A stretch of DNA of 64,000 bases, from assembly GCF_048403405.1 (NCBI RefSeq), contig NZ_CP183129.1; one strand, given 5' to 3'. How positions within the stretch are numbered: the stretch's first letter is position 1; the number at the start of each line of letters is the position of its first letter. The notes under the pieces were generated by a model. That model had not been told where the DNA came from, did not search any database, and was given only the letters and a program-made list of their open reading frames with translations. This document shows, piece by piece, positions 7,947 through 24,573 of this stretch. A program made the position numbers and the translations under genes. This DNA is from Escherichia coli. Lineage in GTDB: Bacteria; Pseudomonadota; Gammaproteobacteria; Enterobacterales; Enterobacteriaceae.

Positions 7947-8435
7947 TTAGCGGACTACCGCGTTGTCAATTTTCTCTTCCGCCTTCCAGATGCGGTACTT
8001 CACATCCACATTGTCTGGCGTATACACCACGATCGGCAGCTTGCTGTTATAACGCAGCATTCCGGCATCGCCCAGATACGCGGTGACAAATTTCTTCTCT
8101 TTCTTGCCATCCGGGCAGGCCATCATCGTCGAAACCGGGGAACTGACTTTATCAAAGACATAATAATCATAGCCCCAGCCTTCCAGCGTTTTGCTTTCCA
8201 GCTTCCCGCCGAGACGATGCAAATTGCAATCGACTTCCAGCGTCTGACCGATTAACAGTTCTACTTTCAGGGTAGATTCATCTTCTTGCGGGGTTAACTG
8301 AATCACCTGACGCTTCATGCCTTTTTCAGCTTGCGGATAAGGCGCGATTTTTTCCAGTGGCTGGACGCTCTCTGCCGCCCAGGCGGAGGTGGTGGCGAAA
8401 GCGGCAAACAATACTGCAGGTAGAATGGTCTTCAT
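7947..8435 (-). CDS. eco: Ecotin, periplasmic serine protease inhibitor
   Basis: 162 aa with signal peptide [20 protein letters not shown]. Confidence 0.9.
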
Positions 8436-8711
8436 TTTTGCTTTCCTTCTTCATTTATAGGTTTTCACCGATGATGTCGCTGAAGGTTAACATATTCATC
8501 AGATTTATTAATTTGCTTTATGAATAACTTAAAGAACATTCAGATAATTTTACCTGCTCTTTTAGTGTTAAATTCTGATGAGAGAGCAAACCAACAGAAA
8601 TATTTCTGGTGAATTAATCGCTATATAAATATGTTTATAACCATTTGAAATGTGAGCAAAAGCCCGTTTTTGCCACGCTTCCCGCCACTCTTTTGATCCT
8701 GCTACAGGTTT

Positions 8712-8727
8712 TACCCCGATCGGGGTA
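8712..8727. promoter_or_regulatory. 7-2-7 inverted heptamer (TACCCCGATCGGGGTA), probable NarP/NarL site of the napF promoter
   Basis: Perfect 16-bp palindrome built from TACCNCT-type heptamers, about 115 bp upstream of the napF start. Confidence 0.5.
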
Positions 8728-8840
8728 TGCATCTTTGACACATCCTTTAATATCTTAGCGGCTATAAAAATGGCTTATTAATTATGCGGTTTATTTGGTC
8801 GCTCTCAATTTTCAGAGCGCGTTAATGATGGAAGGTCAAT

Positions 8841-9335
8841 GTGAAGATTGATGCATCCCGTCGGGGCATACTCACTGGTCGCTGGCGCAAAGCCAGTAAC
8901 GGTATCCGTCCGCCCTGGTCCGGTGATGAATCTCATTTTCTGACCCATTGCACCCGCTGCGACGCCTGTATTAATGCTTGTGAAAACAACATTCTGCAAC
9001 GCGGCGCGGGTGGCTATCCGAGTGTTAATTTCAAAAATAACGAGTGCAGCTTCTGTTACGCCTGCGCGCAGGCTTGCCCCGAATCGCTATTTTCTCCGCG
9101 CCACACCAGGGCCTGGGATTTGCTGTTCACCATCGGGGAGGCGTGCCTGGCGTATCAAACAGTTGAATGCCGCCGCTGTCAGGATAGCTGTGAGCCAATG
9201 GCAATTATCTTTCGCCCGACGCTCTCCGGGATCTACCAGCCGCAACTTAATAGCCAACTTTGCAACGGATGTGGAGCATGTGCAGCCAGCTGTCCGGTAT
9301 CAGCCATAACTGCGGAGTATCTCCATGCACACTAA
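8841..9335 (+). CDS. napF: Ferredoxin-type protein NapF
   Basis: 164 aa; multiple Cys-x2-Cys-x2-Cys-x3-CP 4Fe-4S motifs; GTG start. Confidence 0.9.
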   Translation: MKIDASRRGILTGRWRKASNGIRPPWSGDESHFLTHCTRCDACINACENNILQRGAGGYPSVNFKNNECSFCYACAQACPESLFSPRHTRAWDLLFTIGEACLAYQTVECRRCQDSCEPMAIIFRPTLSGIYQPQLNSQLCNGCGACAASCPVSAITAEYLHAH

Positions 9336-17437: not shown

Positions 17438-19377
17438 TGCCGGAAATTGGTAACGGACTGCTGTGCCTGGCGCTGGGAATTGCGCTGCTGCTGTCCGTGT
17501 ATCCGCTATGGGGCGTGGCGCGCGGAGATGCGCGCATGATGGCGTCTTCCCGCTTATTTGCCTGGCTGCTGTTTATGTCTGTGGCTGGCGCATTTCTGGT
17601 GCTGGTCAATGCTTTCGTGGTCAACGACTTTACCGTCACCTATGTTGCCAGCAACTCTAATACCCAGCTTCCGGTGTGGTATCGCGTGGCGGCCACCTGG
17701 GGCGCGCATGAAGGCTCGCTCCTGCTGTGGGTGCTGCTAATGAGCGGCTGGACCTTTGCGGTAGCGATTTTTAGTCAGCGTATTCCGCTGGATATTGTGG
17801 CCCGTGTACTGGCGATAATGGGGATGGTCAGCGTCGGCTTTTTGCTGTTCATTCTCTTTACCTCTAATCCATTCTCACGCACGCTGCCGAACTTCCCGAT
17901 TGAAGGGCGCGACCTTAACCCGCTGTTGCAGGATCCGGGGTTGATCTTCCATCCGCCTCTGCTCTATATGGGGTACGTCGGCTTCTCGGTGGCGTTTGCT
18001 TTTGCCATTGCTTCTTTGTTGAGCGGGCGTCTGGACAGCACTTATGCGCGTTTTACTCGTCCGTGGACACTGGCAGCGTGGATCTTCCTGACGCTCGGCA
18101 TCGTGCTCGGTTCCGCATGGGCCTATTACGAACTCGGCTGGGGTGGCTGGTGGTTCTGGGATCCGGTAGAAAACGCCTCGTTTATGCCGTGGCTGGTGGG
18201 GACTGCGCTGATGCACTCACTGGCGGTCACTGAACAACGCGCCAGCTTCAAAGCGTGGACATTACTGCTGGCAATCAGTGCCTTCTCGTTGTGTCTGTTG
18301 GGGACTTTCCTCGTGCGTTCCGGCGTGCTGGTATCGGTACACGCGTTTGCCTCTGATCCGGCGCGCGGCATGTTTATCCTCGCCTTTATGGTGCTGGTGA
18401 TTGGCGGTTCGCTGCTGCTGTTTGCTGCGCGTGGACACAAAGTTCGCTCACGCGTAAACAATGCGCTGTGGTCGCGGGAATCTTTGCTGTTAGCGAACAA
18501 CGTTTTGCTGGTCGCCGCGATGCTGGTGGTGTTGCTGGGGACGCTGTTGCCGCTGGTGCACAAGCAACTGGGACTGGGCAGTATTTCGATTGGCGAACCG
18601 TTCTTCAACACCATGTTTACCTGGCTGATGGTGCCGTTTGCGCTACTGCTTGGTGTCGGTCCTCTGGTGCGCTGGGGGCGCGATCGCCCACGTAAAATCC
18701 GCAATTTATTGATTATCGCCTTCATCTCTACGCTGGTGCTGTCTCTGCTGTTGCCGTGGCTGTTCGAAAGCAAAGTTGTGGCGATGACGGTGCTCGGCCT
18801 GGCAATGGCCTGCTGGATTGCGGTGCTGGCAATTGCGGAAGCTGTGCTGCGTATTTCACGCGGCACGAAAACCACCTTCAGTTATTGGGGAATGGTGGCG
18901 GCTCACCTGGGGCTGGCAGTGACAATTGTTGGTATTGCCTTTAGCCAGAACTATAGCGTTGAGCGTGATGTGCGCATGAAGTCCGGTGATAGTGTCGATA
19001 TTCATGAATATCGCTTCACCTTCCGTGATGTCAAAGAGGTGACTGGCCCGAACTGGCGTGGCGGTGTGGCGACTATCGGCGTAACGCGCGATGGCAAGCC
19101 GGAAACGGTGCTGTATGCGGAAAAACGTTATTACAACACTGCTGGGTCGATGATGACCGAAGCGGCAATTGACGGCGGCATCACGCGTGACCTGTACGCC
19201 GCGCTCGGTGAAGAGCTGGAAAACGGCGCGTGGGCCGTGCGTCTTTACTACAAACCGTTTGTTCGCTGGATTTGGGCGGGCGGGCTGATGATGGCATTGG
19301 GCGGGCTGCTGTGTCTGTTTGATCCTCGCTATCGTAAGCGCGTGAATCCGCAGAAAACTGCGCCGGAGGCTGTATGA
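17434..19377 (+). CDS. ccmF: Cytochrome c-type biogenesis heme lyase CcmF
   Basis: 647 aa; WWD motif [13 protein letters not shown]. Confidence 0.9.
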
Positions 19378-20983: not shown

Positions 20984-21016
20984 GAGGCCCGATGGTGATG
21001 CCATCGGGCTGTTTTT
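20984..21016. terminator. Bidirectional terminator between convergent ccmH and narP
   Basis: Hairpin gcccgatggtgatgccatcgggc flanked by an A-run and a T-run. Confidence 0.65.
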
Positions 21017-21662
21017 ATTGTGCCCCGCGTTGTTGCAGGAACAGAATGGTGGCCGCCACGCGTGAGCGGACATTGAGTTTACGCAGCAGATTGCGAATGT
21101 GTACTTTTACTGTCTGCTCGGAAATATTCAACACCGAGGCAATCTGTTTATTTGACAGCCCCTGTGCCAGCTCGTGCAGAACATCCAGCTCGCGCTCCGT
21201 CAGCACGCTGAAGGGATCTTCTTCCGCGCCAAACATTTCACGTTCACGTAAGTACTGATTGACGCGTTCGCTAAAGACTTTGCTGCCTTTCGCTCCGGCA
21301 CGAATCGCTTCCAGCAACACTTCCGGGTCGCTGTCTTTCAACAGATAACCGTCTGCGCCTGCGTCTATCAGCGCAAAGACATCGCTGGAGGCATCGGATA
21401 CGGTCAGGATAATAATTTGCGCGGTAACGCCATCCCTGCGCAAGGCATTGAGGGTATCCAGGCCACTCATACCTTTCATATTGAGATCCAGCAAGATCAC
21501 GTCGATATCCAGTCTATTCGCCAGATCGATCGCGCTCGCGCCGTCGCCCGCTTCGGCGACCACTTCAAAGCCAGGATCAAGCTCCAGTAACTGACGAACA
21601 CCGCGTCGCATAAGTGGATGATCATCCACAATCATCACCTGAAAAGGCGTTGCTTCAGGCAT
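21015..21662 (-). CDS. narP: Nitrate/nitrite response regulator NarP
   Basis: 215 aa from the internal ATG (MPEATPFQVMIVDDHPLMRRG); receiver domain plus LuxR-type HTH. Confidence 0.9.
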   Translation of the reverse strand: MPEATPFQVMIVDDHPLMRRGVRQLLELDPGFEVVAEAGDGASAIDLANRLDIDVILLDLNMKGMSGLDTLNALRRDGVTAQIIILTVSDASSDVFALIDAGADGYLLKDSDPEVLLEAIRAGAKGSKVFSERVNQYLREREMFGAEEDPFSVLTERELDVLHELAQGLSNKQIASVLNISEQTVKVHIRNLLRKLNVRSRVAATILFLQQRGAQ

Positions 21663-21981
21663 AGTAGTCTCCTGAGGTTTTATTAGAATCATTATGTTTG
21701 AGCGTAGCGTTGGTAACGCTACCAGGCGCGTGAATGTTACCCCATTTTATGTATGGACATGTAGCGAAAACTACAACCTTGTCGTTCGCTTTGGCATCAC
21801 TTTCATTATAAAGACGGAATTTTGCATCAGCTTCTCATCAAGAAAAACAACTAAAAAATCAATCACAATACTTGTGCATTTCTTTAAACAGTTTTTAAAA
21901 ACTGACTCCGGGTATGGAGCTATGGGTATTTTCTCTACCCAATGCTTTTAACAGCAATTAATTTCATAGGATGAAAGCTCA

Positions 21982-24573
21982 ATGCATCAATCTGGTTCTG
22001 TTTCTCTTTGTCGTTCCGCAATATCTGTTCTGGTGGCTACAGCGTTATATTCACCCATAGCATTGGCATCAACAGTTGAGTATGGTGAGACAGTTGATGG
22101 TGTTGTCCTGGAAAAAGATATCCAGCTGGTTTATGGGACCGCCAATAATACGAAAATCAATCCTGGCGGAGAACAGCATATTAAAGAATTTGGTATAAGT
22201 AGTAATACTGAAATTAACGGCGGGTATCAGTACATTGAAATGAATGGCACCGCAGAATACTCAATATTAAATGATGGTTATCAAATTGTTCAAATGGGTG
22301 GTGCGGCAAACCAGACTACCCTCAATAATGGTGTGTTACAGGTTTATGGCGCAGCGAATGAACCTACGATTAAAGGCGGGCGCTTAATTATTGAAAAAGA
22401 TGGGATTACCGTCTTTGCCGCTATCGAAAAGGGAGGATTACTGGAGGTTAAAGAGGGGGGATTAGCATTTGCGGTAGATCAGAAAGCCGGCGGTGCGATT
22501 AAAACAACCACCCGGGCCATGGAGGTATTCGGAACAAACCGTCTCGGTCAGTTCGATATCAAGGATGGTATTGCTAATAATATGCTGTTGGAAAACGGCG
22601 GAAGTTTGCGAGTTGAAGAAAATGACTTCGCTTATAATACCACTGTGGATAGTGGCGGCTTACTGGAGGTTATGGATGGCGGGACTGCAACTGGCGTTGA
22701 TAAAAAAGCAGGCGGAAAATTAATTGTCTCAACGAATGCGCTGGAAGTGAGTGGTACAAACAGTAAAGGCCAATTTAGTATAAAAGATGGTGTGTCAAAA
22801 AATTATGAACTGGATGATGGTTCCGGGCTCATTGTTATGGAGGACACGCAGGCCATTGATACTATCCTTGATGAGCATGCCACTATGCAATCGCTGGGAA
22901 AGGATACTGGTACGAGAGTGCAGGCAAATGCGGTATATGATCTCGGTCGATCAGATCAGAATGGAAGTATCACGTATTCCTCAAAAGCCATCTCTGAAAA
23001 TATGGTTATCAACAATGGCCGCGCTAACGTCTGGGCTGGCACAATGGTTAACGTTTCAGTCAGAGGGAATGATGGCATTCTTGAGGTCATGAAGCCGCAA
23101 ATAAATTATGCGCCCGCAATGTTGGTGGGTAAGGTAGTGGTTTCTGATAGCGCTTCTTTTAGAACGCATGGTGCCGTGGATACCAGCAAAGCGGATGTTT
23201 CGCTCGAAAATAGCGCATGGACCATCATTGCCGATATCACTACGACGAACCAAAACACTCGCCTCAACTTAGCCAACCTTGCGATGTCTGGCGCAAATGT
23301 GATTATGATGGCTGAGCCAGTGACTCGTTCATCTGTGACGGCAAGTGCGGAAAATTTCATTACGTTGACCACCAATACCCTGTCGGGAAATGGCAATTTT
23401 TATATGCGTACCGATATGGCTAATCATCAGAGCGATCAGCTCAACGTCACCGGTCAGGCAACAGGTGATTTCAAAATATTCGTGACGGACACCGGTGCCA
23501 GCCCGGCAGCAGGAGATAGCCTTACACTGGTAACAACGGGCGGCGGTGATGCTGCATTTACGTTGGGCAATGCCGGAGGCGTTGTTGATATCGGTACGTA
23601 TGAATATACCTTGCTGGATAATGGCAACCATAGCTGGAGCCTCGCAGAGAATCGCGCGCAAATTACCCCTTCAACCACTGATGTGCTGAACATGGCAGCA
23701 GCACAACCGCTGGTATTTGATGCAGAACTGGACACCGTGCGTGAGCGTCTTGGTAGCGTAAAAGGCGTTAGTTACGATACGGCGATGTGGAGTTCGGCAA
23801 TTAACACCCGCAACAACGTGACCACTGATGCGGGAGCTGGCTTTGAGCAAACATTGACGGGCCTGACGCTCGGTATCGATAGCCGTTTCTCCCGTGAAGA
23901 AAGCAGCACAATTCGCGGCTTGTTCTTTGGTTACTCTCATTCTGATATTGGTTTTGATCGCGGCGGCAAAGGTAATATCGATAGCTACACCCTGGGGGCT
24001 TATGCCGGTTGGGAGCATCAGAACGGTGCCTATGTTGATGGAGTGGTGAAAGTTGACCGTTTTGCCAACACCATCCATGGCAAGATGAGTAATGGAGCAA
24101 CAGCGTTTGGCGATTACAATAGTAACGGCGCGGGTGCTCATGTCGAGAGCGGGTTCCGTTGGGTTGACGGATTGTGGAGTGTTAGACCCTATCTGGCCTT
24201 TACCGGCTTTACCACAGATGGTCAGGACTACACGTTATCAAATGGCATGCGCGCGGATGTGGGAAATACCCGGATATTACGCGCTGAAGCGGGAACGGCG
24301 GTAAGCTATCACATGGACCTGCAAAACGGTACGACGTTGGAACCCTGGCTGAAAGCCGCCGTGCGTCAGGAATACGCCGATTCTAACCAGGTGAAAGTTA
24401 ATGACGATGGCAAATTTAATAATGATGTGGCTGGAACCCGTGGCGTTTATCAGGCTGGGATAAGGTCATCGTTTACCCCGACGTTAAGCGGTCATTTGTC
24501 AGTCAGTTATGGCAATGGCGCAGGGGTAGAATCGCCGTGGAATACTCAGGCGGGTGTGGTCTGGACGTTCTGA
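21982..24573 (+). CDS. yejO: AIDA-I-type autotransporter YejO, intact
   Basis: 863 aa; signal peptide, repetitive G-rich passenger region, C-terminal beta-barrel ending ...QAGVVWTF. From memory this gene is IS5-disrupted in K-12. Confidence 0.8.
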   Translation: MHQSGSVSLCRSAISVLVATALYSPIALASTVEYGETVDGVVLEKDIQLVYGTANNTKINPGGEQHIKEFGISSNTEINGGYQYIEMNGTAEYSILNDGYQIVQMGGAANQTTLNNGVLQVYGAANEPTIKGGRLIIEKDGITVFAAIEKGGLLEVKEGGLAFAVDQKAGGAIKTTTRAMEVFGTNRLGQFDIKDGIANNMLLENGGSLRVEENDFAYNTTVDSGGLLEVMDGGTATGVDKKAGGKLIVSTNALEVSGTNSKGQFSIKDGVSKNYELDDGSGLIVMEDTQAIDTILDEHATMQSLGKDTGTRVQANAVYDLGRSDQNGSITYSSKAISENMVINNGRANVWAGTMVNVSVRGNDGILEVMKPQINYAPAMLVGKVVVSDSASFRTHGAVDTSKADVSLENSAWTIIADITTTNQNTRLNLANLAMSGANVIMMAEPVTRSSVTASAENFITLTTNTLSGNGNFYMRTDMANHQSDQLNVTGQATGDFKIFVTDTGASPAAGDSLTLVTTGGGDAAFTLGNAGGVVDIGTYEYTLLDNGNHSWSLAENRAQITPSTTDVLNMAAAQPLVFDAELDTVRERLGSVKGVSYDTAMWSSAINTRNNVTTDAGAGFEQTLTGLTLGIDSRFSREESSTIRGLFFGYSHSDIGFDRGGKGNIDSYTLGAYAGWEHQNGAYVDGVVKVDRFANTIHGKMSNGATAFGDYNSNGAGAHVESGFRWVDGLWSVRPYLAFTGFTTDGQDYTLSNGMRADVGNTRILRAEAGTAVSYHMDLQNGTTLEPWLKAAVRQEYADSNQVKVNDDGKFNNDVAGTRGVYQAGIRSSFTPTLSGHLSVSYGNGAGVESPWNTQAGVVWTF

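What the first reader, a model, noticed from the sequence alone, without database searches (positions are those of the whole stretch)
8436..8840. napF promoter region with a perfect 7-2-7 heptamer palindrome
Seen in sequence: TACCCCGATCGGGGTA at 8712-8727 is a perfect inverted pair of NarL/NarP-type heptamers. A possible FNR-like half-site (TTGAT) lies just upstream at about 8688-8700. Established knowledge: the nap-ccm operon is controlled by FNR and NarP/NarL. The palindrome is unusually perfect, and the rest of the 405-bp eco-napF gap has no confident ORF.
Basis: partly seen in the sequence, partly recalled or inferred. Interest (0 to 1): 0.2.

Follow-up and report, generated by a model that had tools for sequence, protein, structure and literature searches.

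The report
Known NarP/NarL site of napF promoter
The 16-base palindrome is the long-characterised docking site for the nitrate-sensing regulators NarP and NarL in the E. coli napF (periplasmic nitrate reductase) promoter, identical to the K-12 sequence, so the finding is correct but ordinary.

Summary
TACCCCGATCGGGGTA lies at 8712-8727 in the 405-bp eco-napF gap, and TTGAT lies at 8693-8697. The window is E. coli chromosome, and 8633-8840 is base-for-base identical to K-12 MG1655. The palindrome is therefore the published napF 7-2-7 site. RegulonDB-derived tables list exactly TACCCCG / CGGGGTA for b2208, and the literature puts the heptamers at -49/-40. That places the P1 start at 8764 and the weak FNR site TTGATCCTGCTACA at -64.5, 20 bp upstream. 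Cross-species alignment (E. albertii, four Citrobacter, Leclercia) keeps TACC.C..T.GGGGTATGC, TTGATC and the -10 block, with gap-free spacing between them.

- **Symmetry is not required.** Each heptamer misses the TACYYMT consensus at position 7. A 16-bp perfect palindrome is expected about once per 64 kb. 445 of about 5,420 complete E. coli genomes (O157:H7 and others) carry TACCTCGATCGGGGTA, and Citrobacter and Leclercia vary the centre.
- **The gap does hold an annotated ORF.** RefSeq places yojO at 8568-8732 on the minus strand, across the site. It is broken by stop codons in every relative examined and is probably spurious.

Verdict: already known, low interest.

The parts
8712..8727 (.). 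NarP/NarL 7-2-7 site TACCCCG-AT-CGGGGTA. Centre is 8719.5, which is -44.5 from napF P1; heptamer centres are -49 and -40.
   Evidence: Sequence. Identical in K-12. Both heptamers are listed for b2208 in PMC2718512 supplementary file 4. Position -40/-49 is given in PMC4549865. TACC.C..T.GGGGTA is conserved in Escherichia, Citrobacter and Leclercia.
8693..8706 (.). FNR site TTGATCCTGCTACA. Centre is 8699.5, which is -64.5. The left half-site is perfect; the right half-site is poor (7/10 to TTGAT-N4-ATCAA).
   Evidence: Sequence. It lies 20 bp from the NarP site centre. TTGATC is invariant in 8 taxa with gap-free spacing. FNR ChIP-seq peak at napF in PMC3688515. The -64.5 position is from my own knowledge of Darwin & Stewart 1995 and Darwin et al. 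1998, which are not held in the library.
8748..8756 (+). Overlapping -10 hexamers: TAATAT (8748-8753, P2) and TATCTT (8751-8756, P1).
   Evidence: Inferred from the -44.5 geometry and from the title of Stewart et al. [quoted passage not shown] The block ACACATCCT..AATATCTTA is invariant in 8 taxa. The simple sigma-70 scan does not pick it up, as expected for an activator-dependent promoter.
8761..8764 (+). Inferred transcription starts: P1 at 8764 and P2 about 3 nt upstream at 8761.
   Evidence: Inference: site centre 8719.5 plus 44.5, using -40/-49 from PMC4549865. No start-site mapping data were accessible here.
8764..8840 (+). napF 5' leader of 77 nt, with a small hairpin CGCTCT-N8-AGAGCG at 8800-8819 and a Shine-Dalgarno sequence GGAAGG at 8830-8835.
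   Evidence: Sequence. An ArcZ-napF mRNA interaction from RIL-seq is mentioned in PMC8139620.
8617..8644 (.). ModE-operator-like element ATCGCTATATA-AATATG-TTTATAACCAT. Centre is 8630.5, which is -133.5.
   Evidence: It has the same 8-7-9 layout as the K-12 modA operator CGTTATAT-TGTCGCC-TACATAACG. It is conserved in Escherichia and Citrobacter. ModE activation of nap is stated in PMC8139620. The -133.5 position is from my own knowledge of McNicholas & Gunsalus 2002. The window differs from K-12 at 8616 and 8633.
8568..8732 (-). RefSeq-annotated ORF yojO (54 aa), laid over the FNR and NarP sites. Probably not a real gene.
   Evidence: Annotated. No NCBIfam family. The reading frame carries stop codons after 16-20 codons in E. 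albertii, two divergent E. coli, four Citrobacter and Leclercia, while the underlying binding sites stay conserved.
8841..9335 (+). napF, the first gene of napFDAGHBC-ccm and the gene this promoter controls.
   Evidence: TIGR00402 equivalog, E 8e-73. RefSeq annotation.
21018..21662 (-). narP, the gene for the response regulator that binds the site, about 12 kb downstream in the same window.
   Evidence: NF007708 NarP equivalog, 457 bits against a cutoff of 343, covering residues 11-225 of the ORF 21015-21692.

Best explanation
The palindrome is the common binding site for dimers of the phosphorylated response regulators NarP and NarL in the control region of the E. coli napFDAGHBC-ccm operon.

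Under anaerobiosis, FNR binds the weak site TTGATCCTGCTACA centred at -64.5. With low nitrate or with nitrite, phospho-NarP binds the 7-2-7 site 20 bp downstream, centred at -44.5 and about two helical turns away. The two proteins together activate promoter P1. At high nitrate, phospho-NarL occupies the same 16 bp but is a poor activator, so it antagonises NarP and lowers expression. An upstream ModE-like operator at -133.5 adds molybdate input.

Shown here: sequence identity to K-12, the geometry, conservation across genera, and the population alleles. Taken from the literature: protein binding and regulatory outcome. Inferred: the exact start sites at 8764 and 8761 and the -10 hexamers.
For: - The exact 16-mer is at 8712-8727.
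- 8633-8840 is 100% identical to K-12 MG1655, and the region is present in 5,421 of 5,426 complete E. coli genomes.
- PMC2718512 supplementary file 4 lists TACCCCG and CGGGGTA as the 7-2-7' NarL pair of b2208, and its text names napF among the four genes with reported 7-2-7' sites.
- PMC4549865 gives -40 to -49 for napF, which matches the heptamer centres if +1 is 8764.
- PMC1802743 describes a NarP-dependent napF::lacZ fusion.
- PMC3688515 reports an FNR ChIP-seq peak at napF.
- In the phylogenetic footprint, TTGATC, TTTACC.C..T.GGGGTATGC and ACACATCCT..AATATCTTA are invariant, with no indels between them, in E. coli, E. albertii, four Citrobacter and Leclercia, while the flanks diverge.
- narP is encoded in the same window.
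Against: - By sequence statistics alone, neither site is significant. The 7-2-7 consensus match has 2 mismatches (4 matches in the window against 2.5 expected). The FNR match has 3 mismatches (320 matches in the window against 241 expected).
- The primary footprinting and start-site papers (Darwin & Stewart 1995; Darwin et al. 1998; Stewart et al. 2003) are not in the held library. Binding is therefore cited second-hand, and the start coordinates are inferred.
- The simple sigma-70 scan finds no plus-strand promoter here. This is consistent with an activator-dependent promoter.
Confidence: 0.96

Rival explanations
1. It is a chance palindrome in an AT-rich intergenic region and has no function of its own.
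For: Perfect 16-bp palindromes are expected about once per 64 kb, and the window holds four. Matches to the NarL consensus at this stringency are at chance level.
Against: The arms are invariant across three genera while the flanks diverge. The heptamers are the ones catalogued for napF. The spacing to TTGATC and to the -10 block is fixed.
Confidence: 0.01
2. The conservation reflects protein-coding constraint on the annotated minus-strand ORF yojO (8568-8732), whose first codons (MHTPIGVKPVAGSKE) cover the palindrome and the TTGATC.
For: RefSeq and K-12 annotate yojO here. A sigma-70-like TTGAGA-16-CATAAT on the minus strand at 8808->8781 is listed for 'yojO' in an RpoD genomic SELEX table (PMC3946193).
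Against: The frame is interrupted by stop codons after 16-20 codons in E. albertii, two divergent E. coli, all four Citrobacter and Leclercia, and the start ATG is lost in three of the Citrobacter and in Leclercia (GTG) and in C. werkmanii (GAG). Only the part lying over the regulator sites stays conserved. There is no protein family. The minus-strand hexamers are not conserved outside typical E. coli.
Confidence: 0.02
3. The palindrome acts as a nucleic-acid hairpin or cruciform (a terminator or RNA element) and is not a protein-binding site.
For: It can form a 6-bp stem with a GATC loop, at -4.4 kcal/mol.
Against: The fold is not exceptional: z is -1.5 and 21 of 200 shuffles fold as well. 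No T-run follows on either strand, and the terminator scan does not call it. It lies upstream of the inferred napF start, so it is absent from napF mRNA. Citrobacter and Leclercia variants (GATT, CATT centre) and the O157 variant weaken the pairing without compensating changes.
Confidence: 0.01

Closest known systems
E. coli K-12 napF (aeg-46.5) operon control region: FNR at -64.5, NarP/NarL 7-2-7 at -44.5, dual promoters P1/P2, ModE at -133.5
   Same: The sequence is identical from 8633 to the napF start codon. The heptamers are the same as those catalogued for b2208, the geometry is the same, and the flanking genes eco/yojO/napF are the same.
   Different: Only six SNPs and a 2-nt indel, all upstream of 8634. 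One is next to the ModE-like element (8616) and one is in its spacer (8633). One SNP at 8604 makes CAGAAATATTTCTG at 8595-8608 a perfect palindrome in this strain.
Other natural NarL/NarP 7-2-7 sites (nirB -69.5, nrfA -74.5, fdnG, yeaR, hcp, and others)
   Same: Inverted TACYYMT-type heptamers with a 2-bp spacer, in nitrate/nitrite-regulated, mostly FNR-dependent promoters.
   Different: Of the ten pairs in PMC2718512 supplementary file 4, napF is the only one whose two heptamers are identical. It also sits close to the core promoter (-44.5), downstream of FNR. At nirB and nrfA the site is further upstream (from my own knowledge).
Engineered narG -89/-89 site TACCCCTAAAGGGGTA, used for NarL-DNA EMSA and co-crystals
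   Same: A perfectly symmetric 7-2-7 with TACCCC arms, bound by a NarL output-domain dimer (PMC4549865).
   Different: Position 7 and the spacer differ: T-AA-A there against G-AT-C here. The napF site is natural and carries a central GATC.

Membership tests
NarL/NarP 7-2-7 binding site | Two heptamers in inverted orientation separated by exactly 2 bp | tested here: met
   TACCCCG-AT-CGGGGTA at 8712-8727, with 100% complementary 8-nt arms.
NarL/NarP 7-2-7 binding site | Each heptamer matches the consensus TACYYMT | tested here: inconclusive
   Each heptamer is 6 of 7, with G at position 7 instead of T. Position 7 is also the position that varies between species (G/A/C). Several catalogued natural heptamers deviate as much or more.
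NarL/NarP 7-2-7 binding site | Lies in the control region of a nitrate/nitrite-regulated operon, at a position compatible with activation | tested here: met
   It lies 114-129 bp upstream of the napF start codon. The heptamers fall at -49/-40 as published.
NarL/NarP 7-2-7 binding site | Protected by phospho-NarP and phospho-NarL in vitro, and required for nitrate/nitrite control in vivo | not testable with these tools
   Literature only. PMC9262595, PMC2718512 and PMC4549865 cite Darwin & Stewart 1995 and Darwin et al. 1997/1998. The primary papers are not held.
NarL/NarP 7-2-7 binding site | Evolutionary conservation of the arms relative to the flanks | tested here: met
   TACC.C and GGGGTA are invariant in 8 taxa of 3 genera. 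The exact 16-mer or its single C>T variant is present in 5,416 of 5,421 E. coli genomes.
FNR (CRP/FNR family) binding site | Match to TTGAT-N4-ATCAA | tested here: inconclusive
   TTGATCCTGCTACA is 7 of 10, with the left half perfect. There are 320 matches of equal quality in the window against 241 expected.
FNR (CRP/FNR family) binding site | FNR occupancy in vivo | not testable with these tools
   The FNR ChIP-seq peak centre for napF is 2,301,675 in PMC3688515. The site maps to 2,303,638.5 in NC_000913.3. After the roughly 1,977-bp offset between genome versions (my own knowledge), that is about 14 bp from the peak.
FNR (CRP/FNR family) binding site | Conserved half-site and fixed phasing to the partner activator | tested here: met
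   TTGATC is invariant, and the 20-bp centre-to-centre distance to the 7-2-7 is gap-free in all 8 taxa.
ModE operator | CG.TATAT-N7-T..ATAAC-type inverted repeat resembling the modA operator | tested here: met
   CGCTATAT-AAATATG-TTTATAACC (8620-8643) against K-12 modA CGTTATAT-TGTCGCC-TACATAACG: 13 of 17 arm positions are identical and the spacing is the same. It is conserved in Citrobacter. Binding itself is literature only (PMC8139620).

The most novel reading that the evidence does not exclude
Both activator sites carry a Dam target: GATC at 8695-8698 inside the FNR half-site and GATC at 8718-8721 at the exact centre of the NarP/NarL palindrome. Methylation state, or hemimethylation after replication, might modulate NarP against NarL occupancy. 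The natural O157:H7-type allele TACCTCGATCGGGGTA (445 genomes) might shift the NarP/NarL balance and hence nap expression in that lineage. In H. influenzae, GATC motifs overlap the predicted FNR site upstream of nap and are methylated (PMC12345214). Against this reading, the central GATC is replaced by AATT, GATT or CATT in Citrobacter and Leclercia, so it is not a conserved requirement.
Probability: 0.07. Interest if true: 0.35.

Novelty: already known. Interest (0 to 1): 0.06.

Why it matters
It matters little as a discovery. The site has been a textbook example since the mid-1990s of two homologous response regulators competing for one DNA site to give a biphasic nitrate response. The useful outcomes here are bookkeeping:
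- the perfect symmetry is a feature of most, but not all, E. coli, and is not conserved across genera;
- the RefSeq ORF yojO drawn across the site is very likely an annotation artefact.

Tried and rejected
- I tried to read the primary footprint, start-site and ModE papers (PMC107417, PMC193976, PMC135098, PMC2632075, PMC1251606). None is held.
- A full-text search for the 16-mer itself and for 'napF 44.5 NarP' found nothing.
- A first search for 'yojO' was swamped by 'Lake Yojoa'. The whole-word search found only table listings.
- The supplements of PMC9262595, which might have given the -85/+19 fusion primers and so pinned the start site, are not held.
The other 13 were unrelated ferredoxins, which I ignored. 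The phylogenetic footprint is therefore shallow: three genera, with no Salmonella, Yersinia or Pasteurellaceae.
- The hairpin/terminator reading was rejected.
- The yojO coding-constraint reading was rejected.
- I also checked whether the napF GTG start is odd. Citrobacter and Leclercia start at an ATG one codon downstream, so there is nothing unusual.

Full report
**Observation.**
The 16-mer TACCCCGATCGGGGTA is at 8712-8727, exactly as reported, and occurs once in the window. It is a perfect palindrome with two 8-nt arms and no gap (I5). It reads as TACCCCG-AT-CGGGGTA, a 7-2-7 layout. TTGAT is at 8693-8697. The interval 8436-8840 is the whole gap between eco (7947-8435, minus strand; ecotin equivalog) and napF (8841-9335, plus strand, GTG start; TIGR00402 equivalog, E 8e-73).

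**Chance.**
Symmetry alone is not remarkable. The window has four perfect palindromes of 16 bp or more, against 1.1 +/- 1.2 in shuffled sequence. The consensus match is not remarkable either. Each heptamer is 6/7 to TACYYMT, with G at position 7, so the site scores 2 mismatches. At that stringency the window gives 4 matches against 2.5 expected. The FNR-like TTGATCCTGCTACA (8693-8706) is 7/10 to TTGAT-N4-ATCAA, a quality reached 320 times in the window against 241 expected. The case therefore rests on location, conservation and literature, not on motif statistics.

**Identity of the locus.**
The 405-bp gap is found once per genome in 5,421 of 5,426 complete E. coli genomes, always on the chromosome, at 95-100% identity in all but three of them. 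Aligned with K-12 MG1655, the window differs by six SNPs and a 2-nt indel, all upstream of 8634. From 8633 to the napF start codon the two are identical. Everything published for the K-12 napF control region therefore applies base for base.

**What the literature says about this sequence.**
- A table derived from RegulonDB/CoryneRegNet lists, for b2208 (napF), the NarL sites TACCCCG (forward) and CGGGGTA (reverse) as a 7-2-7' pair (PMC2718512, supplementary file 4).
- The text of the same paper names napF, fdnG, nirB and nrfA as the genes with reported 7-2-7' sites. It notes that NarP binds only this arrangement.
- PMC4549865 places the napF 7-2-7 at -40 to -49.
- PMC9262595 summarises the mechanism. 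[quoted passage not shown]
- PMC1802743 uses napF::lacZ as a NarP-dependent reporter.
- PMC3688515 reports an FNR ChIP-seq peak for napF and classes it as co-activated by NarP.
- PMC8139620 adds ModE activation and IscR repression.
- The primary footprinting and start-site papers are not in the held library, so protein binding is cited second-hand.

**Geometry.**
The site centre is 8719.5. Taking it as -44.5 gives heptamer centres of -49 and -40, as in PMC4549865, and puts P1 +1 at 8764. TTGATCCTGCTACA is then centred at -64.5, 20 bp upstream. This is the published FNR position as I recall it from Darwin & Stewart (own knowledge). The overlapping hexamers TAATAT (8748-8753) and TATCTT (8751-8756) sit where the -10 elements of two starts 3 nt apart would be. 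That agrees with the title 'Dual overlapping promoters control napF' (cited). These start coordinates are inferred, not measured.

A further element, ATCGCTATATA-AATATG-TTTATAACCAT (8617-8644), is centred at -133.5. That is the position I recall for the ModE site (McNicholas & Gunsalus 2002, own knowledge). Its arms match the K-12 modA operator CGTTATAT-N7-TACATAACG at 13 of 17 positions with the same spacing.

**Phylogenetic footprint.**
A NapF-based scan of one genome per species returned seven true orthologous loci: a divergent E. coli, E. albertii, four Citrobacter and Leclercia. In the alignment of their upstream regions the flanks diverge freely. Three blocks are invariant or nearly so: TTGATC, TTTACC.C..T.GGGGTATGC and ACACATCCT..AATATCTTA. 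No indel lies between them in any taxon. A highly divergent E. coli (91.6% over the core) keeps the 16-mer and its flanks intact while changing the right FNR half-site and neighbouring bases.

Within the 7-2-7, variation is confined to two places:
- Heptamer position 5 varies C/T, which the consensus allows.
- The four central bases vary: GATC in most Escherichia and in C. werkmanii, AATT in two Citrobacter, GATT in one Citrobacter, and CATT in Leclercia.

The arms are therefore constrained, but perfect symmetry is not.

**Population view.**
A 40-mer centred on the site cannot seed a megablast hit if any of the 16 bases differs. It hits 4,971 genomes. The missing genomes are explained by a single allele, TACCTCGATCGGGGTA, with C>T at position 5 of the left heptamer. 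This is the same change as in E. albertii. It is found in 445 genomes, largely O157:H7, with O145, O169:H41 and others. Together the two alleles account for 5,416 of 5,421 genomes. About 8% of sequenced E. coli therefore carry an imperfect palindrome.

Perfection is nevertheless dispensable.

**The ORF question.**
RefSeq and the K-12 record annotate yojO (54 aa) at 8568-8732 on the minus strand, straight across the FNR and NarP sites. It has no NCBIfam family. In E. albertii, two divergent E. coli, all four Citrobacter and Leclercia, the frame hits a stop after 16-20 codons, and the start ATG is replaced by GTG (three Citrobacter, Leclercia) or GAG (C. werkmanii). Only the segment over the binding sites is conserved.

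A minus-strand TTGAGA-16-CATAAT at 8808->8781 is the hexamer pair tabulated for 'yojO' in an RpoD genomic SELEX study (PMC3946193). It is not conserved outside typical E. coli. I conclude that yojO is most likely a spurious ORF.

**Rivals.**
- A purely accidental palindrome is excluded by the conservation pattern and the catalogued heptamers.
- Coding constraint from yojO is excluded by the broken frames.
- A hairpin or terminator role is unsupported. The fold is -4.4 kcal/mol, z is -1.5, and 21 of 200 shuffles fold as well. There is no T-run, and the terminator scan does not call it. The element lies upstream of the inferred transcription start.

**Novelty and score.**
This is the known K-12 napF NarP/NarL site, so the finding is already known and of low interest. 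The only loose thread is that both activator sites contain GATC, at 8695 and 8718. In H. influenzae, GATC motifs overlapping the predicted FNR site upstream of nap are methylated (PMC12345214). A Dam effect on the NarP/NarL balance, or a functional difference in the O157-type allele, is not excluded. The central GATC is not conserved across genera, so I give this a low probability.

Noticed in passing
window 8568-8732 (- strand): RefSeq/K-12 ORF yojO (54 aa) overlaps the FNR and NarP sites. Its frame is broken by stop codons in every relative outside typical E. coli, so it looks like an annotation artefact.
   Followed up: yes
window 8716 (left heptamer, position 5): There is a natural allele TACCTCGATCGGGGTA, which is an imperfect palindrome. 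It occurs in 445 complete E. coli genomes (O157:H7, O145, O169:H41 and others) and in E. albertii. 4,971 genomes carry the perfect form.
   Followed up: yes
window 8595-8608: CAGAAATATTTCTG is a perfect 14-bp palindrome in this strain but imperfect in K-12 (CAGAAATATCTCTG). Its centre is about -162.5 from napF P1. I know of no role for it.
   Followed up: partly
window 8695-8698 and 8718-8721: The only two GATC (Dam) sites in the gap fall inside the FNR half-site and at the exact centre of the NarP/NarL palindrome. The first is conserved in all 8 taxa; the second is not.
   Followed up: partly
window 8781-8808 (- strand): A sigma-70-like TTGAGA-16-CATAAT (10/12) lies inside the napF leader and points towards eco. 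The same hexamers are tabulated for 'yojO' in an RpoD genomic SELEX paper (PMC3946193). It is not conserved in E. albertii or Citrobacter.
   Followed up: partly
window 8800-8819: There is a small hairpin CGCTCT-N8-AGAGCG in the napF 5' leader, just upstream of the Shine-Dalgarno sequence (-5.0 kcal/mol, z -2.2). A review notes a RIL-seq ArcZ-napF mRNA interaction, but the target region is not known to me.
   Followed up: no
window 8616 and 8633: Two of the six SNPs against K-12 fall next to or within the ModE-like operator: T for C at its edge, and G for A in its spacer.
   Followed up: no
window 21889-21904: CAGTTTTTAAAAACTG is a perfect 16-bp palindrome in the divergent intergenic region between narP (minus strand) and an 863-aa ORF (21982-24573, plus strand). 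Two further perfect palindromes lie inside coding sequence: 18996-19013 in the ccm region and 21614-21629 in the narP 5' end.
   Followed up: no
window 21018-21662 (- strand): narP, which encodes the regulator that binds the palindrome, lies about 12 kb downstream of its target site in the same window, just past the nap-ccm operon.
   Followed up: yes
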